Virus record (IMG/VR): IMGVR_UViG_3300025150_000005 | Direction: 5' to 3' (one strand) | Length of the DNA: 64,000 nt | From: an uncultured virus (IMG/VR IMGVR_UViG_3300025150_000005) | Taxonomy: Duplodnaviria; Heunggongvirae; Uroviricota; Caudoviricetes | Shown: positions 23,112 to 56,056 of the stretch, piece after piece | How positions within the stretch are numbered: position 1 is the first letter of the stretch | How the letters are laid out: each line of letters begins with the position of its first letter | The notes under the pieces: model-generated | Told to the model about the DNA's origin: nothing | Database searches by the model: none | The model's input: the letters and a program-made list of their open reading frames with translations, nothing else | Position numbers and translations under genes: made by a program

Positions 23112-23583
23112 TCATGCGTGACCCGGCTCTGTGCCAAGTCGGCGCTGAACGTCCGACCACAGGTTGCGCACGGGCTTCGACTGGCGCTCCGCGTAACTGA
23201 TCGCGTTCGCTGTCCCGCCTGTCGGTGATCCATCCCACACGGCCCAGACCACGTCAGCCCGGTCGACCATCCACTCATTGCGACGTTGTAGCTTCCAAGC
23301 AGCGTAGGGTGGTTGGGCGACGAAGACGACGCGTGTGGCCTGCGACAGGATGCCCGTGTAGTCGTCGCGCGACGACGGGGGCCATGGCGCCTCCTGGCCT
23401 GGGAAGGGGACAGCCGCGACGAGAGGGATACTGAGCGCGAGCGTGATTCGCACTGCGATTTGGTCGACCCCGAGCGCCATGCCGGAGATGACCTGTGTTG
23501 GGCGGGCCTCGATCAGTGCTGCGTGAATGGCGTCGTACACGGCACGCTGCACCGGGTTTGGAGCGTAGCCACCTAGTTTGTTT
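23112..23583 (-). pseudogene. YspA/DUF1273 SLOG-family protein, 5'-truncated by an IS end
   Basis: NKLGGY...ISGMALGVDQ...RNEWMVD..AVWDG..GGT.N; the expected upstream TGHRP is replaced by the IS terminal repeat. Confidence 0.8.
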
Positions 23584-23710
23584 CTTGGCTATCCGGTTGC
23601 CTCAGAATCGGCCCCCTCTCCCGGATCCTGGGATCCAGGAAGCCCGCGACGCCAGCCCCGCCTGTATCCTACTCGCACCTACAGACGTGAGCTAGCTAGC
23701 GGCGCGCGGT

Positions 23711-24007
23711 CTAGTGTCCGACTGCTTGTACGGTCACCCACACTTCGGCACTGTCATTAGTGTTCAGGTGCGTGAGCGTGAGCCGCGTTGCAGTGAAGTG
23801 CCACACGGACTGCTCGACATCCTGGGAAGGATCACACTCCCGACGGGGGCCCGCCTGCCCCGCTGCGTTATAGGTTTGGGCGCAGACAGCACCCCTGCGT
23901 ACATAGACGCGTACGATAGCCGGGTGGCAGCCGTTTACCACTTCGTAGGAAAGTGGCAGCTTCCGGTCACCACTCGGGAATCGGTACAGAGTCGACAAGT
24001 CGCTCAT
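23711..24007 (-). CDS. IS passenger, small beta-rich protein
   Basis: Aligns by eye with 54374..54634 (EVV.G..P..VRV...RG...Q.VW.F.A.R). Confidence 0.7.
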   Translation of the reverse strand: MSDLSTLYRFPSGDRKLPLSYEVVNGCHPAIVRVYVRRGAVCAQTYNAAGQAGPRRECDPSQDVEQSVWHFTATRLTLTHLNTNDSAEVWVTVQAVGH

Positions 24008-24052
24008 GATCTCAGTCCGAGGTTCTATTGTCACAGCGCCACCTCCCAATTA

Positions 24053-24176
24053 GGCGCGCTGGACCCTTGTCAGAGCGGCCACGATCCACTATGGTCGTGG
24101 CTAGCTTGGGCGCTCTGATTGGTCCAGTGCGCACACACTCGAAGCCGCTCGGGGTACCAGCCCGAGCGGCTTCAAC
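24053..24176 (-). ncRNA. Candidate structured RNA/leader in IS1595 element, copy A
   Basis: 13-bp hairpin plus a long interrupted stem; near-identical copy at 54741-54862; upstream TAGACC-17-TACTAT at 24213-24185. Confidence 0.55.
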
Positions 24177-24227
24177 CTCCCTAGATAGTAAGCCCATCCA
24201 AACGGGCGGTCTAGGCTTTCGTCGCAC

Positions 24228-25334
24228 CTACAAGCATAGGTTGCCATCCGCGTCCCACACGGGCGCGAACCCGTAGGCCAGCAACTCCTCGGGCAGCACA
24301 CTGAACACGTCCCCGACACCCACGCCATCCCACGAGCCCCCCGGGTTCTCCCTCACGTTCGCCAGCCCGTTGTAGTGCGCGCGGTACGTCACCGCAGGGG
24401 TTTCGGCACCGATCTGGAGCAAGGTTCGGAACGACCGCATCCGGGCGAAGCGCCGGTTGAAGCGGAACACGTACTCGTTGAGGTACTCCTGTAAGTGCTA
24501 CTTGCGCACGGCGCCGTGATACGTGCCGAGCAACCACGCCTTGAGATTCGAGATCACGAGGTGCACGAGCGGCACCCAGCTCTCGATGACCTCCTTGTTC
24601 TTCTTCGTGACCAGCCACTCATGAACGTAGCCCAGCTCGTTGAGGCCCATGTAGCTCTGATCCGCGTCGGACAGCACAACAGATCCCGGCTCGGTCCAAT
24701 CCTGCACGAACTTCTCGACGGTCACGGCCTTCTTGTCGGGGATCTTCCGCATCCGAAGGCGCCCGGCATAGAAGCGCTGCTTCTTCTCGCGGAGGTTCTT
24801 GGGCGGCGTCCCTTCGCGCATTTCGACGCCGATGATCACCAGCGCCTTCCGCGTCTTCCCGCGGCCTTCGCCACGGTTGACGCCGCCGACGTAGGCGATG
24901 TCCAGCTCTACGGGGTACTCGCCACCGATCTTGTCCTGGTTGAGGCGCGTCATGCCCTCGCGGAGCTTGCGTAGGAGCATGTAGGCGGTCTCGTAGCGAC
25001 CGATCCCGAGCTGTTTCCTGAACTCCAGAGCGGAGAGTCCAGGCGTCGAGGTCGCGACGAGGTAGGCGCCCCAGAACCAGACGCGAAGCGGCTGCTTGGT
25101 GCGGTGCATGATCGTGCCCGCGGTGACGCTGGTCTGGTGTCGGCAGGCACGGCATTCGAGAAGGCCGCGCGTCGCGATAACGTAGGGGTAGTCTCGCACG
25201 CCACAGGCCGGACAGGTGAAGCCGTTGGGCCAGCGGACCTCCGCGAGATAGCGTACGCAGGCTGCATCGTCGGGGAACATCTGCTGAAATTCGATCAGGT
25301 TGCGAGGGTAGGTCGGGAGGGGGTTCGCGCGCAC
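24228..25334 (-). pseudogene. IS1595-family DDE transposase with a premature TAG at 24498-24500
   Basis: RWPNGFTCPAC..LECRAC Zn ribbon, VELD, LSD, HLQEYLNEYVFRFNRR; copy B has AAG where this copy has TAG. Confidence 0.9.
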
Positions 25335-25730
25335 GTGCGGGACCTATGGATATAGGAGGATGCGTCCACCGTAGTGACGCGCGGCACGACGGTCAACGCG
25401 AAGAGGCGAACGGGAAAACGTAGGTACAAACGTAGGTCAAGTACGCGGCACGAAACGAGAAATCGTCATTTGGGCCTTGCGCGGATCGGTTCGGGTCAGT
25501 ATTTCTTTGGGCGTACCGAACTGGGAGGTGGCTCCCCTAAATCCTCGGATTCGGCAATGGTGTCGGGTCCAGGAATGCGAAACCCCCGCGGATAGCCGTC
25601 CGGGGGGGTTTCTTCGAAAGACAGTGCTGAAGCTAGCAGCACAGCCCACGCAAACGTAACCGTACCCGATTACGTCTGTTGCTGCAAGGCATTAGCACTT
25701 CACGTTCTGCGCAAGCGGAGAGGAGGTTCT

Positions 25731-26147
25731 ATGTCGAGCAGTAGCTCCAAGTTCATCGCTGTCATCGTCGCCCGTGTTCTGCGCGAGGTTCAGTGGTTCC
25801 TCGACCACCCGGACGTCGCCACGGTCTACGTCGGCCGCACCTACGACCTCAAGCGGCGACGCCGTGATCACGTCGCCGCGGGTCGTGGGAGCATCTTCTT
25901 CCCCCTGACGCGCATCATCGGCCACCGCCTCACCGAGCTGGTCGAGACGATGGTCCTCACGCTCCTCTGGGGGCATCCGAAGCTCATCAACCGCGAGGCC
26001 GATGGGCGGGGCGCCCTGCACGCTGGCGCGAACTTCATCTACGTGATGGTGGAGGTGTGCACGAAGCAGCGCCGCGACTCGCGCCTCGCTCTCGACGAGG
26101 ACCGCGTGGAGAAGGCGACCAGCACCGGGGGGTTCATCTTGATTTGA
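25731..26147 (+). CDS. GIY-YIG-like nuclease
   Basis: VYVGRTYDLKRRRRDH ... E ... N; GAGGAGG RBS. Confidence 0.65.
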   Translation: MSSSSSKFIAVIVARVLREVQWFLDHPDVATVYVGRTYDLKRRRRDHVAAGRGSIFFPLTRIIGHRLTELVETMVLTLLWGHPKLINREADGRGALHAGANFIYVMVEVCTKQRRDSRLALDEDRVEKATSTGGFILI

Positions 26148-39429: not shown

Positions 39430-39483
39430 CTTGGCTATCCGGTTGACTCAGAATTGGCCGGCGCTCCAGGATCCCGGGATCTA
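39430..39483 (-). mobile_element. Orphan IS1595-type end, copy C
   Basis: CTTGGCTATCCGGTTGACTCAGAAT plus subterminal GGATCCCGGGATC. Confidence 0.8.
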
Positions 39484-39493
39484 GGCACATAGG

Positions 39494-40321: not shown

Positions 40322-41622
40322 GATGAATGTCCCCCCGACGTACGTTCAGACTCAGCACGCCAACTCATTGACTTCAGCCAGAGATCCGCTGCACAGACGT
40401 AGCGTCGAACTCGCTGATTGATCTCCGCTAGCTCACGACCCCACCCTGCAGTAGGGCGTCGCGGGAAGGACGCGTCGGCGAGCACACACGTCACGACGAC
40501 CATCGGGATACGTCGACCGTCGTTTTTGAAAGTCGCATGGTCCAACTCGACTACGAGATCCACGACGTGCTCGCCGAAGTCGGTTCGGTCACGCTGGAGC
40601 GCCGCGCGCAGCTGATCTACGAGATGATCCGGATCCTCGTAGAACGGGGGCGCCCAGCGCGCCTGGAACTGGTCTGGGCTCTGCAGTGCCGGCTGGCCAT
40701 TTGCGGACACGACCACGTACGCGCCGGCGCGCCCGAAGAGTGGATACCCGGGCGCGTCCTGGTCAAGCGGCAATCGACGGATCTCCAATGTGGGGGGCGT
40801 GTCCTCGTCGTTCGGATCACCACACCGTCGACAGTCGTACTTCTCCCCCAACCAGCGCGCGATCACGCGTGTGGTCTCCTCCGACCCGTCCCAGAGCAGT
40901 GCGTCCACTTGCGGCGGGCGGTAGTGGTATGTGCGTGGGATCATCGAACAGACGCCCCGCGCGCTGGGCGCCAGTCCACAGGCACGACCGACACACCGTG
41001 TTCGCGGAGCCACTCACCGAGCGTCACGTCACCCGAGTGCTCGCGCCGCCAACCGAAATTGGGGCGATCACCCACCATCCCCACTTCCATTGCGATCTGT
41101 TGTCGAGCCACCTGGACCGTCTCAGCGTCGTAACTTCCGACGTAGTCACCAGCGGTTCGGAGCTGACCTGCGAAACACGCGTTGAGGACGTGGTCCAGGC
41201 CATCTCGCCCGGATGCCTCGGATGCCTCCACGAGTTGCTGGAACGTCTCGACGTCATCGACATTCCCGAACCACGCGTTGGCGTCGTAGGTGAACGCAGG
41301 CCACGGTGCGTCAGATATGGGCATCAGTGCAACTCCACTGGACCCTCAAGGATCACACACTTCACGAGCGCCCCTGCGTCGCCACCCCACGGATGAACAG
41401 CAACTAGACCCGCTGTGTCGCGACAGAACTGATCCCAACGTCGTGCGCAGGCACTCAGGCGCCGATGACGACCATCGACGTCGAACGTGACGTGGCCCCG
41501 GCTCACACTGACGACACGATACCGACACGTGCCCAGCTTGAAGCTGTCGCCGGGCTCCAACTTCGAGAAATCGAGACGGTCGAAGACCACGTGAGACGCC
41601 TACTCGCTGTCGTTGCAAGCGG

Positions 41623-43332: not shown

Positions 43333-44877
43333 TCAACGCGGCAAGTGCCCCCGCATGACCTCTGCCGTGGCTTCAGCGTCGGCCTTGGCATCGCGTGACC
43401 CGTCGCCTGCGTAGTAGGTCTTCGCCTCGTTCAACGCGTTGCCGTCGTACCAGCAGGCACACCACTCGCCGTCCAACTTCTTGACCACGACGCGCGACAG
43501 GCGTGCACCTGAGGGGCGCGCTGCGCGCTTCCTGGGTGCCGCCCCATTGGCCCGCGCGTGTGCAGGCAGCTTCGCTCCTGTCAGATCCGCGTCGTTGAGG
43601 TTCGCACCATCGAGGTTCACCCCCCGCAAATCGGCGTAGCGCAGGACCGTCCGTCGAAAGAGCACGTTGCGCATGTCGGCGTTGCGCAAGTCCGCGTTCG
43701 CGAGCATCGCGTCCGTCAGCCTCGCACCTGAGAGATCCGTCTCGCGCAGGTTCGCGTCCGTCAACCGCGCGCGAGCGAAGTTGACCCCCGCCAGATCGGC
43801 GCCCTCAAAGTTTGCGCCTGCGAGCTGCTTCCCGCTGAAGTCCTGCCCGCGCAAGTCCTGATCGACGAAGTAGGGTGCGTTGGGGCGTGGCGTAGACACG
43901 CCATATGCTCCCGTGAAGTCGGCGCCGTCGACCTTGGCACCTTCGAGCTTGGCGCCGCTCAAGTTGGCGCCACGCAGCACAGCGTTGCGAAGATCCGTCC
44001 GACGCAGATCTGCGCTCATGAGCAACGCGCCAGGCAGATCTGCGTGCCGCAGATCCGCCCCACGCAGGTCCGCGCCGTCCAGGTTGACGTTGTGCCCAAG
44101 TACCCACTGGAGATCTGCCCGTTGCAGATCGGCCCCGGAGAGATCGGCCCCGCCGATGACGGCGCCGTGGAGATCCTGTCCGTAGAGATCGGCCCCCGGC
44201 AGGTAGGCGTCGCCCAGGTTAGCCTGCCGCCCAGTTGCTCCACCCGACCGACGCCACTTCTTCTGCTCGTCGAGGATGTAGCGCAGCTCGCTGCGCGGAA
44301 TCGTGCGGCCATTCACGCGTGCGGCAGGGCGTGTTGGCTTCTTCGTCTCGGGCGAGACCTTGACCCTGCGCCGAGTCGTGTTCGTCAGGTTGGCACCCGT
44401 CAGGTTGGCGCCACGCCAATCGACCTGCTGTAGAGTCGCACCCGTCAGATCAGCGCCCTCCAAGTCCGCACGTGCCATCCTCGCGTTGCTGATCTGCGCG
44501 TCGCGCAGGATCGCACCCGTCAGATCGGCGCCCTCCAAGTTCACCGTGTGGAGCCGCGCGCCGTCGAGGTTCGCCGCGGTGAAGCGCGCACCCGACAGAT
44601 CAGCGTGGTTCAACGCGGCCTGACGCAGGTCGGCGTTGTCGAAGCTCGCTCGAACTGCATCGACGAGTGTCAGATCCGCTCGAATCAGCCGCGCGCCTCG
44701 CAGGTCAGCCCCGGTCAGGATGGCGCCGTACAAGTTGCGCCCAGAGAGCACGACGTCCCGCAGATCGGCGTTGCTGAGGTTCGCCTGTGCCCCTTGCGCC
44801 TCCTCGGAGTCGACCCACAGCTCGTGTGCGTCGATGATGCGAGCAAGATCCGTCGCGGTGATTCGGCGCTTGGCCAT
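43333..44877 (-). CDS. Multi-module pentapeptide-repeat protein
   Basis: Three A(D/N)Lxx repeat blocks plus a small C-terminal domain. Confidence 0.9.
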   Translation of the reverse strand: MAKRRITATDLARIIDAHELWVDSEEAQGAQANLSNADLRDVVLSGRNLYGAILTGADLRGARLIRADLTLVDAVRASFDNADLRQAALNHADLSGARFTAANLDGARLHTVNLEGADLTGAILRDAQISNARMARADLEGADLTGATLQQVDWRGANLTGANLTNTTRRRVKVSPETKKPTRPAARVNGRTIPRSELRYILDEQKKWRRSGGATGRQANLGDAYLPGADLYGQDLHGAVIGGADLSGADLQRADLQWVLGHNVNLDGADLRGADLRHADLPGALLMSADLRRTDLRNAVLRGANLSGAKLEGAKVDGADFTGAYGVSTPRPNAPYFVDQDLRGQDFSGKQLAGANFEGADLAGVNFARARLTDANLRETDLSGARLTDAMLANADLRNADMRNVLFRRTVLRYADLRGVNLDGANLNDADLTGAKLPAHARANGAAPRKRAARPSGARLSRVVVKKLDGEWCACWYDGNALNEAKTYYAGDGSRDAKADAEATAEVMRGHLPR

Positions 44878-44908
44878 CGGACAACCCCATAAAACGAAAC
44901 GAGATCCG

Positions 44909-45952
44909 TTATAGCAGCCCCTCGGCCGGGTTGTCACGGAAGAGATTGGCCTCGCGGATGTACCGCTCGACCATCGCAGTGCTCTTGTGGCGTGTCTGGC
45001 GCTTGATCACGTGCGCGGGGCGCCCTGCCCGTGCAGCGGCAGTGGCGAACCCCGCACGCAAGGAGTGGCCTGAGTAGGCATCGGGGTTCGGGACGCCTGC
45101 GACCGCGGCTGCACGCTTCGCGAGTCGGTTGACGGCCTGCGTGCTCATTCGCTGCTCGGTGAGCACGTCGCCGTGCGGCCCGTAGATCACCAACCACAGC
45201 GGATCGCGTGGCTCCCCATCACCGATCGCGTCCAGCCACGCTCGCAGGTTCCGTACGGGGCAGGTCACGCGGCGTGTCCCGTACGGCACCGCGAGACGCG
45301 CCCCATAGCCCTCCTGATCCGTCTTCGAGCGTCGGATCGTGACCACGACGCCTCCGGTGTCGAACGTGACGTCGGCTCGGTTGAGGGCCACCAGCTCCGA
45401 CCGTCGCAGAGCGGCCGCGAAGCCGATGGTGAGCACGGCCCGGTCGCGAATGCCCCGGAGAGTGTCTGGGAGGCCCTCACACGCCTTTCGGAGCAGGTCG
45501 GGGACGTGAGGGGCAGCTTGGCGTTGTGGAGCCCCTGAGACCTGCCGTCGGAACGCCTGGAGGCGATACTTGACCTCGGGGTGCGCCTTGGGCGACGGGT
45601 GACCTGCCGCGACGTGGGCGTGGTTGATGGCGACGACCGCCGTGTCCAGCGTCGTTCGGCTCTTCCCCTCGGCGACCAGGGTGCCCAGGTAAGCCACGAT
45701 GTGCGCTGGGACTGCTGGGATGGGGCGCACCTGACGTGAGTGGCACCACAGCTCGTAGCGGCGAAGCGCGCCTTGGTACGCACGGCGTGTGTTGTCGGAC
45801 CAGATGGCCTGCCCAAGATCGGCGGCCTGCTCCATGTCCGCGATGAGCAGGGGGCTGTCCTCGACGCGCCCGACTTCGTCGAGAGCGTCGAGGGTATCCA
45901 CGTCGATGATCATGAGGTCGGTGGACAGAGGTGCGGCCTCCACGCTGTACAT
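44909..45952 (-). CDS. Cre-like tyrosine recombinase
   Basis: SAM-like N-domain (NTRRAY), ALRRSE, RSKTDQ, GHSLRAG, QTRH, RY catalytic residues intact. Confidence 0.9.
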   Translation of the reverse strand: MYSVEAAPLSTDLMIIDVDTLDALDEVGRVEDSPLLIADMEQAADLGQAIWSDNTRRAYQGALRRYELWCHSRQVRPIPAVPAHIVAYLGTLVAEGKSRTTLDTAVVAINHAHVAAGHPSPKAHPEVKYRLQAFRRQVSGAPQRQAAPHVPDLLRKACEGLPDTLRGIRDRAVLTIGFAAALRRSELVALNRADVTFDTGGVVVTIRRSKTDQEGYGARLAVPYGTRRVTCPVRNLRAWLDAIGDGEPRDPLWLVIYGPHGDVLTEQRMSTQAVNRLAKRAAAVAGVPNPDAYSGHSLRAGFATAAARAGRPAHVIKRQTRHKSTAMVERYIREANLFRDNPAEGLL

Positions 45953-45997
45953 GAAGAGGCTACCACACGGGCTGGCGTCGCAGGTTGAAAGAGAGGC

Positions 45998-46026
45998 TTG
46001 ACCCCAACCTACGTTCGTAGTAGGGT
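45998..46026 (+). promoter_or_regulatory. Sigma70-like promoter with shared operator, divergent from the recombinase
   Basis: TTGACC-CCAACCTACGTTCGTAG-TAGGGT. Confidence 0.8.
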
Positions 46027-46067
46027 CCGCCCTGCGCCTGAGCCGCTGCGAGGACGACAGGGCCAAC

Positions 46068-46729
46068 ATGGACAAGAGCCCACCGCTCCTGGGCCAGCTA
46101 CTCACAGGTCACCTGGATCTCCGCGACCTGCTCATCGCAGGTGCCGTCGAGGTGTGGGGTCTCCGCGAAGACGGCTGCGCGTCCATACACCCGTCGCCAG
46201 ATTTCCGAGGGCGTGTCCGTGAAGCTCGACACAAGTTGAAGGAGATCACAGCGACGATCGCTGAAGTCGAGGCGTGGCCTGCAACTGAGGCGCAACTGCA
46301 CCACAAAGCGCACTGCAATGCCGTCACAGAGGACCTGGACGACGCCAAGCGCTACCGCGCTGACTTGCGCCGACTCCGAGCAGAGCTGCGGGACTTCGTC
46401 GCAGCACTTCAACCGGAGCGCGTCGAAGGGCACGCGCAGGTATTGGCAGCGGCCGACAAGGCGCGGCCGACAAGGCGCGGCCGCTCCTACACGCACTTCG
46501 ACAGTACGTCGACTGGAACCGCGACGTATCCACCGCAGCCAACTTCCTCTGCCTGGGCTACACCTCCGAGGCGTTTCGCATGATGCGACTCTGTGCGCTC
46601 ATGGCCGACAAGGCGCGCTGGGGGCGCGAGCTTGAGGCCGCCCAAGAAGAAGCTGCGGAGTACGCCGCGTTCGCCGAGGCGTTCCTCGCCGCTCTGCCAG
46701 AACCCACCCCAGAACCGGAGCCTGCGTGA
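46068..46729 (+). pseudogene. Hypothetical gene, apparent frameshift near 46500
   Basis: An alternative frame continues (WNRDVSTAANFL...EPA*) to a GTGA overlap with the next gene. Confidence 0.5.
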
Positions 46730-53805: not shown

Positions 53806-54373
53806 GTCGTACTGCTCCGTCAGACCTGGAGTCCCAGGGCTTGCGCGCGGGGTTGGAGGATGTCGTAGGAGACCCGCCGGGTCCACGCTGCGTCCATGAG
53901 CGCGTTGTGGGCGACGTGCTCGTCCAGCTTCGGGAACTGTCGAACCCCCAGCAGGTCGCTGAGCTGCTTGATGTCCTTTGTGTGCATCGGCATCCCCTCA
54001 GGCAGCTTGGCCATCGTCCCGAACAGCCAGCAGAGCATGACGTGGTCGTAGGCCGCGTAGTAGCCCCACAACTCGGTATGCACGCGCTCGGATGGTCCGA
54101 TGAAGCGAAGCACCGCGTCGCGGATCTCCCGGCACGTCATCCACGTGGGGTCGTCAGGGTCGGGCAGCTTCTGGAGCACGTTCTGCCGCACCCAGCCGTT
54201 TGCCAGAGAGAAGTCGGCTTCGCGGTTGCAGCAGTGTAGGTCCGCTCGACCATTCGCGTTGACCATGTCGATCGAGATCAGTTCCAACCTTGGCTATCCG
54301 GTTGCCTCAGAATCGGCCCGGCCGGCCAGGATCCTGGGATCCAGACCGGCCCCAGCTTCTCCCACGCGACCCC

Positions 54374-54634
54374 CTACCCGATGGTCACCCGGAAGCTGGC
54401 GACACCGCCCTTCTCGGGGACTTCCACGTCGACTCGACGGGCTCGGAAGTTCCAGACCGTCTGTCGCCCATGCAGATACGCGATCTCGAACCGATCCGAT
54501 ACGGTGCCACTCTTGTCGTACAGCGCGACTTCCAGAGTTCCACGCTTCATCTCCACGCGGACCTTAGAGGGGTCAGGGCCGCGTACCACTTCAATGATCC
54601 CACCATCCTCGCGTAGTCGGTAACTCGTATTCAT
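54374..54634 (-). CDS. IS passenger, small beta-rich protein (homolog of 23711..24007)
   Basis: GAGGA RBS; shared motifs with the copy A passenger. Confidence 0.7.
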   Translation of the reverse strand: MNTSYRLREDGGIIEVVRGPDPSKVRVEMKRGTLEVALYDKSGTVSDRFEIAYLHGRQTVWNFRARRVDVEVPEKGGVASFRVTIG

Positions 54635-54740
54635 GTTGTCCTCGATGATGGTTTCCTGAGAGACGTTTAGCGTCTCGTCAGAATCAGTCTGCCGGGCAAC
54701 CACAACCGCCACCTCGACGGGCCGCGAACGGCCAAGCTGA

Positions 54741-54862
54741 GGCGCACTGGACCCTTGTCAGAGCGGCCACGATCCACTATGGTCGTGACTGGCTTGGGCG
54801 CTCTGATTCGACCAGTGCGCACACCCGAAGCCGCTTGGGCTGCAATCCCGAGCGGCTTCAAC
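54741..54862 (-). ncRNA. Candidate structured RNA/leader in IS1595 element, copy B
   Basis: Near-identical to 24053-24176, with most changes in loops. Confidence 0.55.
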
Positions 54863-56056
54863 TTTTCTACGGTAGTCGTTCGACGGATCGTAATCCAACC
54901 GTTTTCGACGCATTCGATAGGCACCTACAAACGTAGGTCCCTCAGTCCTCGACGAACCCGAACCTCATCAGGTCTTCGGGCAACACGCTGGTCCAGCCAC
55001 CACCCGGGTTCTCCCTCACAGGCGCTGTGCCGTCGTAGTGACCTCGATACGTCACGGCGTCCGCCCCCGTCCCGATCTGTAGCAGCGTGCAGAACGACCG
55101 CATCCGGGCGAAGCGCCGATTGAAGCGGAAGACGTACTCGTTGAGGTACTCCTGAAGGTGCTTCTTCCGCACGGCCCCGTGGTACGTGCCCAGGATCCAT
55201 GCCTTCAGGTTTGAGATCACGAGGTGAACCAGTGGCACCCAACTCTCGATGGTCACCTTGTCCTTCCTCGTGACGAGCCACTCGTGAACGAATCCAAACT
55301 CTGGCGAGCTTCAAGCGAGGCCCGGCGGAAGTTGCCGCTTCATCACTGGATGCAGGATTACCCTACAGGGGGTTTCGGGAGGTGCTGCGAGTCCACATGC
55401 AGTCGTCGAGGTCGCACGAGTCGACCAGCCCGAGTGAGGTCGAGGCGTAGGCGCGATTACAGTCGGGTAAGACATTCTGCGCGCAGTTGGCCTAGTTTAC
55501 CGAGGCTATCGAGGGTACACTGGTCGAAGTGAATCCCGGGACCCGGATCTGCGTGTGCGCCAGTGTGGGCTGGGGGTCATTCTGAGGCAACCGGATAGCC
55601 AAGGTTCCAACTGCCCTGGGGCTTCCATGAACTCGGTGTCGTAGAAGAATCGGCGCGTTGGCTTCATGTGAACAACTCCTTCAGGAACGCTGGCACCTGT
55701 CGCCAGACAGTCGGGCTGACCAGACAGCTCAACAGGAAGCGCCACTGGTCGAGGTAGTCGAGGATCGCGTCAGTGCGCATTGGTGCCGCCATGCGGCTCG
55801 CAGGCACGCTCGACGACGTGTGCGAGCGCGTAGATACCCGCGATGATGCCGAGCGTGTGTCCCATAGTAGGCAGTGCCTGCGTGGTCTTACCACAAGGGC
55901 AGACAATCTCACCGCAGGGCAGGCTGTTCGGGATCGTCTCGATCGTGAGTGTCGCCGCGAACTGCGCACAGTGTGGACAGCGCACGGGATTGAGGGTCAA
56001 CTTGACGGTCTCGGCCATCGTACGGCCAGCGAGGTTGTCGGGGCGGTCTGCCACTT

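What the first reader, a model, noticed from the sequence alone, without database searches (positions are those of the whole stretch)
23711..24241. IS1595 elements carry a conserved structured RNA plus small protein module with its own promoter
Seen: in both IS copies the transposase is followed, on the same strand, by a candidate promoter (copy A TAGACC-17-TACTAT) and then a ~125-nt element. The element is a GAAGCCGCTCGGG-loop-CCCRAGCGGCTTC hairpin followed by a nested GCGC/CTGG/TCAGAGCG/CACGA-CCA stem. After it come GAGGTGGCG and an 86-98-aa beta-rich ORF. By eye the non-coding element is about 90% identical between copies (24053-24176 vs 54741-54862), while the two proteins share only scattered motifs (about a third of residues). 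The module survives in copy B even though most of the transposase is deleted. Inference: an RNA-protein accessory system of IS1595 that I do not recognise. It could be an autoregulated leader or riboswitch, an RNA-antitoxin TA pair, or a transposition-modulating RNA.
Basis: partly seen in the sequence, partly recalled or inferred. Interest (0 to 1): 0.8.

Follow-up and report, generated by a model that had tools for sequence, protein, structure and literature searches.

The report
Structured RNA control cassette in IS1595
Two decayed copies of an IS1595-type jumping gene in a groundwater phage-like contig carry, in front of a small cargo gene, a folded control region that probably also makes a short antisense RNA, an arrangement so far known mainly from the unrelated element IS200.

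Summary
Both IS1595 copies carry, after the transposase gene, a ~125-nt two-hairpin element. It is 91% identical between copies, against 74% for the transposase DNA and 45% for the ORF. A small homologous ORF follows it.

28-bp terminal repeats and an 8-bp target duplication place the module inside the IS.

A third, diverged copy at 25574-25704 (+) keeps the fold through 18 compensatory pairs of 41, so the structure is selected. That copy precedes an unrelated ORF.

The element is not a family trait. It was found beside none of 161 loci fetched with related queries.

The bases conserved in its loops spell a promoter, TTGnnn-17-TAnGGT, on the opposite strand. This pattern has 7 hits in the window where 0.35 are expected. 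The other four hits lie upstream of genes.

The predicted transcript is ~80 nt, ends at the GC hairpin, and folds alike in all three copies.

Best reading (0.45): an IS200-like control region made of a terminator hairpin, a leader stem-loop and a cis-antisense sRNA, governing a cupin-fold cargo protein. No expression data exist. I rate it a new variant of a known kind.

The parts
25368..25396 (-). Promoter-like site TTGACC-17-TACGGT. Its -10 ends 34 nt upstream of the GTG start of transposase A.
   Evidence: One of 7 hits of TTG-N20-TANGGT in the window (0.35 expected).
24228..25334 (-). IS1595-family transposase gene, copy A. It has an in-frame TAG at 24500..24498, where copy B and relatives have Lys.
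   Evidence: Full-length relatives are 353-366 aa.
24226..24241 (-). Short palindrome ACCTATGCTTGTAGGT overlapping the transposase stop. Copy B has ACCTACGTTTGTAGGT at 54938..54923.
24185..24213 (-). Copy B has TTGGAT-18-TACCGT at 54898..54869.
   Evidence: Read. It did not pass the scan and is not conserved in sequence.
24050..24178 (-). Structured element, copy A. Hairpin 1 is 24173..24141 and the long nested hairpin is about 24133..24054.
24067..24095 (+). Opposite-strand promoter TTGTCA-17-TATGGT inside the long hairpin of copy A.
24102..24182 (+). Predicted ~80-nt antisense RNA of copy A. It has a 5' hairpin with a 7-nt loop, then hairpin 1. Start and end are inferred, not observed.
   Evidence: -40.1 kcal/mol, z -4.2.
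23711..24049 (-). Passenger ORF A, a cupin-like all-beta protein. The likely start is GTG 24034 (107 aa).
23584..23639 (-). Right end of IS copy A: palindrome GGATCCCAGGATCC plus a 28-bp terminal inverted repeat ending ...GGATAGCCAAG.
   Evidence: (D4).
25574..25704 (+). Third, diverged copy of the element (C), in the opposite orientation. Hairpin 1 is 25579-25612.
   Evidence: It scores 37 bits (E 2.5e-6) with the model built from copies A and B only.
25659..25687 (-). Opposite-strand promoter TTGCAG-17-TACGGT inside element C, at the homologous place. It points towards transposase A.
25570..25652 (-). Predicted ~80-nt RNA of element C, with the same two-hairpin shape.
   Evidence: -36.9 kcal/mol, z -2.8.
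25731..26147 (+). ORF C (138 aa), which follows element C. It is an orphan with a weak GIY-YIG resemblance.
   Evidence: E 0.029, below the Pfam cut-off; no relatives.
55576..55603 (+). Left terminal inverted repeat of IS copy B (3 mismatches to the right repeat).
54942..55298 (-). Transposase C-terminal fragment of copy B.
54738..54864 (-). Structured element, copy B.
54755..54783 (+). Opposite-strand promoter TTGTCA-17-TATGGT in copy B. On this strand hairpin 1 (54827-54859) is followed by AACTTTTCTA.
54374..54712 (-). Passenger ORF B. The likely start is GTG 54703 (109 aa).
54289..54344 (-). Right end of IS copy B: palindrome plus 28-bp terminal repeat. The 8-bp target duplication GTTCCAAC lies at 54281-54288 and 55604-55611.
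39430..39457 (-). Solo copy of the terminal repeat (2 mismatches). No convincing transposase lies beside it.

Best explanation
The module is the cargo part of a passenger-carrying IS1595-family element that lives in a phage-like genome. The ~125-nt element is a compact two-way control region, built like the left end of IS200.

(1) A GC-rich hairpin ends transcription coming from the transposase gene. From the other side it ends a short antisense transcript.

(2) An ~80-nt irregular stem-loop forms the 5' leader of the cargo mRNA, 24-40 nt before its ribosome site.

(3) A promoter of the genome's own type (TTGnnn-17-TAnGGT) sits inside that stem-loop on the opposite strand. It makes an ~80-nt RNA that is fully complementary to the hairpin and the 5' arm of the leader.

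Pairing of this antisense RNA with the leader would set how much of the cupin-fold cargo protein is made, and would insulate it from transposase read-through.

Shown here: the anatomy, the position inside the IS, selection on the fold, and the specificity of the promoter pattern in this genome. Inferred: that either RNA is made, where each starts and ends, and the direction of the regulatory effect.
For: Inside the IS:
- Copy B has 28-bp terminal repeats plus an 8-bp duplication, GTTCCAAC. It splits an Rv2179c-like exoribonuclease gene.
- The C-terminal gene piece aligns to PDB 6s0m from residue 16 onward.
- The repeat CTTGGCTATCCGGTTG... is of the same type as the ends of relatives, C(A/T)TGCyTATCCGGTTG.

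Selection on the element:
- It is 91% identical between copies, against 74% for the transposase DNA and 39-46% for its neighbours.
- A model built from copies A and B alone finds a third copy at 37 bits, E 2.5e-6.
- On the three-copy alignment, 18 of 41 pairs change on both sides and 96.7% of cells pair. Slid controls give 0-2 such pairs.

Opposite-strand promoter:
- TTG-N20-TANGGT has 7 hits in 64 kb on both strands, against 0.35 expected.
- Four hits lie 27-41 nt upstream of start codons of same-strand ORFs. The other three are the three elements, at the homologous position.
- The conserved bases ACCnUA sit in different structural contexts in A/B and in C. That fits a -10 box better than an RNA loop.

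Antisense RNA:
- The three predicted transcripts fold into the same two hairpins, each with a 7-nt loop.
- In copy B the hairpin on that strand pairs fully, with one G-U, and is followed by TTTTCT.

Cargo:
- It is a real protein family: 5 further members in 1.84 billion representatives, with conserved motifs.
- The AlphaFold2 model has pLDDT 85.
- The fold is cupin-like: VIA-align Z 10.2, rmsd 3.2, 88 residues aligned to 1y9q.

Precedent:
- IS200 has a bidirectional terminator hairpin, a 5'UTR stem-loop and the 90-nt antisense RNA art200 (PMC4513863; abstract and passages read).
Against: - There are no expression data.
- There are only three copies, all in one contig. Two of them are close kin, and the covariation was counted on an alignment fitted to the model.
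- If the antisense RNA starts where predicted, it holds only one arm of the long hairpin. The compensatory changes therefore speak for the sense RNA (or for single-stranded DNA), not for the antisense RNA.
- G-U against C-A asymmetry and strand-wise energies do not pick a strand.
- Hairpin 1 lacks a T-run in copy A on either strand.
- A sense-strand promoter is only weakly supported in A and B, and none was seen for C.
- The ribosome site is outside the antisense overlap, and no conserved anti-SD pairing was found.
- In element C the inner promoter points at the transposase gene, in sense. In A and B it points at the transposase gene's 3' end, in antisense. One common role with respect to the transposase is therefore not evident.
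Confidence: 0.45

Rival explanations
1. The element is a purely cis-acting sense-strand RNA. It is a structured intergenic region or leader: a terminator plus a long hairpin that serves as a processing site (RNase III-type) or as a 5' stabiliser for the cargo mRNA. The opposite-strand promoter-like sequence is silent or incidental.
For: - The compensatory changes support the long hairpin, which only a sense transcript (or ssDNA) contains whole.
- In copy C the sense-orientation MFE reproduces the long hairpin, while the opposite strand does not.
- An ORF with a ribosome site follows 24-40 nt after each of the three copies.
Against: - The promoter pattern is very specific in this genome: 7 hits against 0.35 expected, and 4 of 4 non-element hits lie upstream of genes.
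- The pattern is kept with exact 17-nt spacing in the diverged copy C.
- The conserved loop bases have different structural roles in A/B and in C.
Confidence: 0.2
2. The element works at the DNA level. It is a promoter flanked by inverted repeats (an operator for a dimeric regulator, a cruciform, or a hairpin in single-stranded DNA). The base pairing is selected in DNA and not in RNA.
For: - The promoter boxes sit inside the inverted repeat.
- Both strands fold about equally well.
- The element and the terminal repeats are the two best-conserved IS segments.
Against: - A one-sided 9-10-nt internal loop with conserved sequence (CCCAMGC), and bulges, are typical of single-strand folding, not of a duplex operator.
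- Operator half-sites would be conserved in sequence rather than covary.
- DDE transposition of IS1595 has no known single-stranded stage (established knowledge, not tested here).
Confidence: 0.12
3. The module is a toxin-antitoxin-like addiction or defence pair. The small protein is harmful and an RNA from the element neutralises it (type I or type III style).
For: - The layout is RNA element, then terminator-like hairpin, then ORF.
- The ORFs diverge strongly between conserved flanks.
- The module is kept in the non-autonomous copy B.
Against: - The protein is a soluble cupin-like beta barrel of ~107 aa. It is neither a short hydrophobic peptide nor an endoribonuclease fold.
- There are no tandem RNA repeats in the element.
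- There is no PADLOC, Pfam, PHROGs (E 0.016 at best) or NCBIfam match.
- Copy C precedes a different ORF.
Confidence: 0.08
4. The RNA acts in transposition itself, for example by binding or guiding the IS1595 transposase.
For: - All three copies lie beside transposase genes of the window's IS1595-family copies.
- Conservation of the element equals that of the terminal repeats.
Against: - The element was found beside none of 161 loci fetched with related queries.
- Most relatives with identifiable ends (23 of 32) have no room for it.
- It lies internally, ~460 nt from the right end.
- No outstanding complementarity to the transposase start region was seen.
Confidence: 0.05
5. The element has no function of its own. 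Its high identity between copies A and B reflects recent gene conversion or recombination between the two IS copies.
For: - One contig of run X3 joins the copy-B flank to the copy-A element. It may be a recombinant or an assembly chimera.
- The pattern of conserved blocks around a divergent ORF also fits exchange at the conserved flanks.
Against: Conversion does not explain the diverged third copy, which keeps the fold through 18 double changes and keeps the promoter spacing.
Confidence: 0.05

Closest known systems
IS200 left-end control region with the antisense sRNA art200 (PMC4513863; abstract and passages read)
   Same: The order of parts matches: a bidirectional terminator hairpin, then a ~70-nt inverted repeat forming a stem-loop in the 5'UTR, then the ORF. 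A ~90-nt cis-antisense RNA is complementary to that leader, and both RNAs are highly structured.
   Different: - IS200 controls its own HUH transposase. Here the region precedes cargo ORFs of a DDE IS1595-family element, and one non-IS ORF.
- There is no sequence or Rfam relation.
- Here the antisense promoter lies inside the stem-loop, and the ribosome site is outside both the stem-loop and the overlap.
- Nothing here has been shown to be transcribed.
IS10 RNA-OUT / RNA-IN antisense control
   Same: An IS-borne inward-facing promoter makes a short, stable, hairpin-shaped antisense RNA.
   Different: RNA-OUT overlaps the transposase start site at the IS end. Here the overlap is with a cargo leader downstream of the transposase gene.
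Passenger-carrying IS1595-family elements (family description recalled; passenger regions in relatives seen)
   Same: - The transposase has the same domains, and the terminal repeats are of the same type.
- The target duplication is 8 bp.
- Extra DNA lies between the transposase stop and the right end in 9 of 32 relatives with identifiable ends. One of the nine is two transposase copies head to head, and one has a dubious repeat.
   Different: The 7 passenger regions inspected hold unrelated ORFs. None matches the small-protein profile (best E 1.2) and none has the element.
Cupin (double-stranded beta-helix) domains, e.g. the cupin domains of XRE-family regulators 1y9q and 6b8w
   Same: The predicted fold matches: Z 10.2 and 10.0, with 87-88 residues aligned.
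   Different: - Sequence identity is 8-10%, and Foldseek gives E 1.8e-3 at best.
- There is no Pfam hit.
- None of the 9 invariant columns of the 7-member alignment is a metal-binding His or Glu.

Membership tests
IS1595 family insertion sequence | Transposase with an N-terminal zinc ribbon and a DDE_Tnp_IS1595 domain | tested here: met
   PF12760 (E 8.9e-18) and PF12762 (E 3e-18). NF033547 scores 129 bits against a cut-off of 75.
IS1595 family insertion sequence | Terminal inverted repeats of the family type | tested here: met
   Copy B has 25 of 28 matching repeats. Their outer part, CTTGGCTATCCGGTTG, resembles the ends found beside relatives. The left repeat of copy A was not found.
IS1595 family insertion sequence | 8-bp target-site duplication (the family value is recalled, not looked up) | tested here: met
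   GTTCCAAC lies at 54281-54288 and 55604-55611 and splits an exoribonuclease gene. For copy A, no second AAACAAAC exists in the window.
Any Rfam family | Match to a covariance model at the gathering score | tested here: not met
   There were 0 matches in the whole window. With E up to 5 on 23950-25800, only chance-level rows appeared: Hammerhead_II at 21 bits against 37, and P15 at 16 against 70.
IS200-type control region (terminator hairpin, leader stem-loop, cis-antisense sRNA) | Terminator hairpin followed by a leader stem-loop upstream of the ORF | tested here: met
   This concerns anatomy only.
IS200-type control region (terminator hairpin, leader stem-loop, cis-antisense sRNA) | A transcribed antisense RNA complementary to the leader | tested here: inconclusive
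   A promoter pattern and a conserved fold are predicted. Transcription cannot be tested here.
IS200-type control region (terminator hairpin, leader stem-loop, cis-antisense sRNA) | The stem-loop sequesters the Shine-Dalgarno sequence of the regulated gene | tested here: not met
   The ribosome sites (24047..24039 in copy A) lie 8-30 nt outside the long hairpin. Only short, non-conserved complementarities were noted by eye.
Type III toxin-antitoxin (ToxIN-like) | Antitoxin RNA made of tandem repeats upstream of an endoribonuclease toxin | tested here: not met
   There is no tandem repeat in the element. The protein is cupin-like. There is no PADLOC hit.
Type I toxin-antitoxin | Small hydrophobic membrane peptide as the toxin | tested here: not met
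   The protein is an all-beta soluble domain of 107-109 aa.
Transposon guide or bridge RNAs (IS110 bridge RNA, TnpB/IscB omega RNA type) | RNA conserved with the transposase family and built from or overlapping an element end | tested here: not met
   There were 0 matches beside any of 161 loci fetched with related queries. The element is internal, ~460 nt from the right end.
Cupin superfamily (cargo protein) | Double-stranded beta-helix fold | tested here: met
   The AlphaFold2 model has pLDDT 85.1 and pTM 0.76. VIA-align top rows are cupins at Z 9-10.2. Foldseek rows are cupins at E 2e-3 to 1e-2.
Cupin superfamily (cargo protein) | Conserved His/Glu metal-binding motifs (recalled definition) | tested here: not met
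   The invariant columns of A8 are M1, G40, R47, G53, W83, A87, R89, A101 and T106. The His of VWH is Asn in ORF B.

The most novel reading that the evidence does not exclude
The element is a portable, self-insulating expression adaptor that mobile genes of this phage lineage use to plug in cargo. It combines a terminator, a structured leader and an inward-firing antisense promoter in ~125 nt. It has been copied in front of unrelated ORFs: the cupin-like cargo of the IS, and a GIY-YIG-like gene. Its small RNA may also act in trans on phage or host messages, as RNAs derived from IS200 do in Salmonella.
Probability: 0.15. Interest if true: 0.65.

Novelty: new variant of a known kind. Interest (0 to 1): 0.42.

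Why it matters
IS1595 elements are usually read as a bare transposase gene between two repeats. Three full-text searches pairing IS1595 with 'non-coding RNA', 'antisense RNA' or 'passenger gene' listed 12, 3 and 18 papers. Judged from their titles and abstract starts, none reports an RNA regulator of this family.

If the reading holds, an unrelated DDE element has arrived at the same three-part control logic as IS200, but applies it to cargo instead of the transposase. That would show that such control regions are modular and can move between genes.

The finding also gives a clean, small test object: ~125 nt with defined boxes and stems. It also adds a new small cupin-fold protein family carried by a phage-borne IS.

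The find is narrow. It rests on three copies in one uncultivated groundwater contig, with no expression data.

Tried and rejected
Searches for more copies of the element, all negative:
- Exact or degenerate DNA patterns of the element core, of the terminal repeat and of the conserved promoter-side positions gave 0 hits in viral contigs.
- blastn of the module against phage records gave no match.
- Models R1 and R2 found nothing better than E 0.12 in 160 and 161 loci. The best hit, in L099, lies inside a transposase gene.
- R2 with filters off found only the three copies in the window.

Searches for more cargo-protein context:
- The word-indexed search found only the window's own two proteins.
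- tblastn of P0123 against phage records gave no match.
- A viral-contig scan with P0123 gave one 17-residue match, taken as chance.
- The alignment was too variable for a locus scan.
- There were 0 matches in 401 and 31 genomes of the phyla of G002 and G001. This shows nothing, because the host is unknown.
- ORF C has no relatives.
- The ESM Atlas gave scores of 0.84 or less.
- BFVD gave generic cupins only.

Close transposase relatives:
- The closest relatives (63-65% identity, P0002-P0006) could not be placed on DNA.

Sequencing runs:
- No RNA holder was listed. The holders are groundwater or aquifer DNA runs.
- Laying contigs of 4 runs showed no empty site and no variant.

Left end of copy A:
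- No repeat with 9 or fewer mismatches was found.
- No second TSD copy and no N-terminal piece of the truncated YpsA-like gene were found in the window.
- A 22-nt inverted match (24038-24059 with 25511-25532) was considered as an alternative IS end. I dropped it because it has no flanking duplication and an 11-mer match of this kind is expected by chance.

Other checks:
- Trans targets: duplex energies of the three predicted RNAs against the transposase and cargo start regions are ordinary (background fraction 0.3-0.99).
- A weak third transposase-like hit at 40884..40366 (23% identity, E 0.004) was not taken as real.
- Earlier-findings look-ups returned nothing.
Full report
**What is there**

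The finding lies on the minus strand of a 65% GC window. The window looks like part of a large phage or phage-plasmid. It encodes family A DNA polymerase fused to UDG, SbcCD-like proteins, an integrase, an HNH endonuclease and an AAA_24 protein. It has no tRNA genes and no Rfam match. DNA runs that hold the stretch are groundwater and aquifer metagenomes.

Copy A reads, in order:
- a promoter-like site, 25396..25368;
- an IS1595 transposase gene, 25334..24228, with the zinc ribbon and DDE domains;
- a ~50-nt spacer;
- the structured element, 24178..24050;
- a ribosome site and an ORF ending at 23711;
- a palindrome and a 28-nt motif ending at 23584.

The transposase gene has an in-frame TAG at 24500..24498. 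Copy B and the 353-366-aa relatives have Lys at that position.

Copy B has the same order from the last third of the transposase gene onwards (55298..54289).

**The module is inside the IS**

The 28-nt motif occurs four times in the window. In copy B one copy lies at each side, in inverted orientation (54289-54316 and 55576-55603, 25 of 28 matching). Both are flanked by the same 8 bp, GTTCCAAC.

The insertion splits an Rv2179c-like exoribonuclease gene. The piece at 54287..53820 aligns to PDB 6s0m and 4oke from residue 16 onward. A short ORF piece on the other side of the IS (55667..55605) reads in frame up to the duplication.

Among 85 relative loci with enough flank, 32 had an inverted-repeat pair scoring 14 or more around the transposase gene. 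Their outer sequence, C(A/T)TGCyTATCCGGTTG, is of the same type as the window's CTTGGCTATCCGGTTG. The motif is therefore the IS end.

Copy B is a 1315-bp non-autonomous element that still holds the module.

Copy A has only the right end. That end abuts a YpsA/SLOG gene whose Pfam match starts at profile position 34. No left repeat, no second copy of its flanking 8 bp and no N-terminal gene piece were found. The left side of copy A is therefore rearranged.

**Conservation**

Between copies, identity by segment is:
- element: 111 of 122 (91%);
- palindrome plus terminal repeat: 50 of 56 (89%);
- shared transposase DNA: 264 of 357 (74%);
- spacer: 39%;
- ORF: 45%;
- stretch after the ORF: 46%;
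- outside flank: 41%.

The element is thus as well kept as the IS ends, and much better kept than what surrounds it.

**Structure**

Both copies fold far better than shuffles (z -4.9 and -3.3). The fold is a perfect 13-bp GC hairpin followed by an ~80-nt hairpin of three stacked helices, with a one-sided 9-10-nt internal loop.

A covariance model built from the two copies alone found a third copy at 25574-25704 on the plus strand (37 bits, E 2.5e-6). It is about half identical in sequence and has the same architecture.

On the three-copy alignment, 18 of 41 pairs change on both sides and 96.7% of cells pair. With the 3' partners slid by 1-3 columns, 0-2 pairs do so. The alignment was fitted to the model, which favours the structure, but the margin is large.

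No further copy exists in the window, even with filters off.

**Not a family trait**

Two covariance models were run on 160 and 161 loci. Most of these loci encode IS1595 transposases 41-55% identical to copy A. They comprise 2 loci from genomes, 80 from metagenomes and 78 from viral contigs. One further locus, fetched through a chance small-protein match, went to R2 only.

No match had E below 0.1. The best match lies inside a coding region.

In 23 of the 32 relatives with identifiable ends, the right repeat ends 5-80 nt after the stop codon, giving an IS of about 1.05-1.17 kb. Nine have 327-1598 nt extra. Of these nine, one is two transposase genes head to head and one repeat pair is doubtful.

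The seven passenger regions inspected hold unrelated ORFs (best E 1.2 against the small-protein profile).

**The cargo protein**

ORFs A and B are homologous (30% identity, E 4e-9). A full HMMER pass over 1.84 billion representatives found five more small proteins, with E from 1e-13 to 9e-6. They share motifs such as E-V/I-V-x-G, V-R-I/V-E and Q-x-V-W-H-F/Y-x-A-x-R.

The extension upstream of the first ATG is conserved as protein. The GTG starts (107 and 109 aa) are therefore likely.

The protein has no match in Pfam, NCBIfam or PADLOC, and at best E 0.016 in PHROGs.

AlphaFold2 on the seven-member alignment gives an all-beta model (pLDDT 85.1, pTM 0.76).

VIA-align against 48,161 chains puts cupin domains on top: 1y9q at Z 10.2, rmsd 3.2, 88 aligned; 6b8w at Z 10.0. 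Foldseek agrees weakly, with E 1.8e-3 or worse. No invariant His or Glu suggests a metal site.

**The third copy changes the picture**

Element C is followed, 33 nt later, by an unrelated 138-aa orphan ORF (25731..26147). That ORF has a sub-threshold GIY-YIG resemblance and no relatives. The element is therefore not tied to the cupin-like protein.

**A promoter on the other strand**

The consensus scan flagged TTGTCA-17-TATGGT inside the long hairpin of copies A and B, on the plus strand. Read on its opposite strand, copy C has TTGCAG-17-TACGGT at the homologous columns.

The pattern TTG-N20-TANGGT has 7 hits in the window on both strands, against 0.35 expected. The largest count in 100 shuffles was 2.

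Three hits are members of the window's repeated promoter-like motif, TTGACn...TAGGGT. One lies just before transposase A. Each of these four lies 27-41 nt upstream of the start codon of an ORF on the same strand. The other three hits are the three elements.

The bases that stay constant in the 'loops' of the RNA model (AAGG, ACCnUA) are exactly the -35 and -10 boxes. ACCnUA sits in different structural positions in A/B and in C. That fits a DNA signal better than an RNA loop.

From the predicted start, ~40 nt lead to hairpin 1. The three predicted ~80-nt RNAs fold into the same two hairpins, each with a 7-nt loop. In copy B that hairpin pairs fully on this strand and is followed by TTTTCT.

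Each arm of the long hairpin is itself an imperfect palindrome. The two triplets that would pair in both folds (CUG and CAG) are among the invariant pairs. This is what a double constraint would give. It is an inference.

**Mechanism proposed**

The element is a two-way control region.

On the sense strand, hairpin 1 stops or attenuates transcription coming from the transposase gene, and the long stem-loop forms the leader of the cargo mRNA.

On the other strand, a promoter inside the stem-loop makes a short RNA that ends at the same hairpin. That RNA is fully complementary to the first ~80 nt of the leader.

This is the logic described for the IS200 left end: a bidirectional terminator, a 5'UTR stem-loop and the 90-nt antisense RNA art200 (PMC4513863; abstract and passages read). 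Here it is applied to cargo instead of the transposase.

Open points:
- whether either RNA is made;
- the sense promoter. The candidates in A and B differ, and none was seen for C;
- how pairing would reach the ribosome site, which lies outside both the stem-loop and the overlap;
- why the inner promoter faces the transposase gene in sense for C but in antisense for A and B.

Strand-wise energies and G-U counts do not decide between strands.

**Rivals**

The rivals are a purely sense-strand leader or processing site, a DNA-level inverted repeat around a promoter, a toxin-antitoxin-like pair, a direct role in transposition, and neutral gene conversion. Each is weighed in its own section.

The third copy argues against neutrality. 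The absence from relatives argues against a transposition role. The fold of the protein and the lack of repeats argue against the known RNA-antitoxin types.

**Verdict**

The element is a candidate structured leader plus cis-antisense RNA cassette, carried as part of the cargo of one lineage of IS1595-family elements in an uncultivated phage-like genome. It is a new variant of a known kind of IS-borne RNA control.

The evidence is anatomical and comparative only. It rests on three copies from one contig.

Noticed in passing
window 2299, 14144, 16750, 28869, 32949, 41629, 42142, 46007 (and variants at 24228, 25424, 54925): A repeated promoter-like motif, cTTGACnnnnACCTACGTTTGyAGTAGGGTCC. Its 14-nt core has 11 hits where 0.09 are expected. 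A perfect-palindrome variant, ACCTAyGyTTGTAGGT, sits on the transposase stop in both IS copies. A tandemly doubled variant lies upstream of transposase A.
   Followed up: partly
window 79-141, 970-1032, 3888-3950: A three-copy repeat family. It is a GC hairpin (GGGGAGGGG...CCCCTCCC) followed by TGATGGTCACGyGGTGTG (D3/D7). It may be a terminator or a regulatory site.
   Followed up: no
window 53820-54287 and 55605-55667 (-): An Rv2179c-like 3'-5' exoribonuclease gene of the phage-like genome is split by IS copy B. The downstream piece aligns to PDB 6s0m from residue 16 onward.
   Followed up: yes
window 23112-23582 (-): A YpsA/SLOG-family gene abuts the right end of IS copy A and lacks its N-terminal part (the Pfam match starts at profile position 34). 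The missing piece is not in the window.
   Followed up: partly
window 39430-39485 (-): A solo copy of the IS end with its palindrome (2 mismatches in 28). It is preceded by a promoter-like sequence and followed by a gene start. It is probably a relic of a third IS copy.
   Followed up: partly
window 23584-24307, run X3: One public contig joins the flank and end of copy B to the element and transposase tail of copy A. It is either a recombinant between the two IS copies or an assembly chimera through the shared repeat.
   Followed up: no
window 43333-44937 (-): A 534-aa pentapeptide-repeat protein (Pfam E 6e-87) lies next to a tyrosine integrase gene (44909-46105). Its repeat DNA shows up as family D2.
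   Followed up: no
L090 2952-5606: In one viral contig, two IS1595 transposase genes lie head to head between long (36 nt or more) inverted repeats, in a composite-like arrangement.
   Followed up: no
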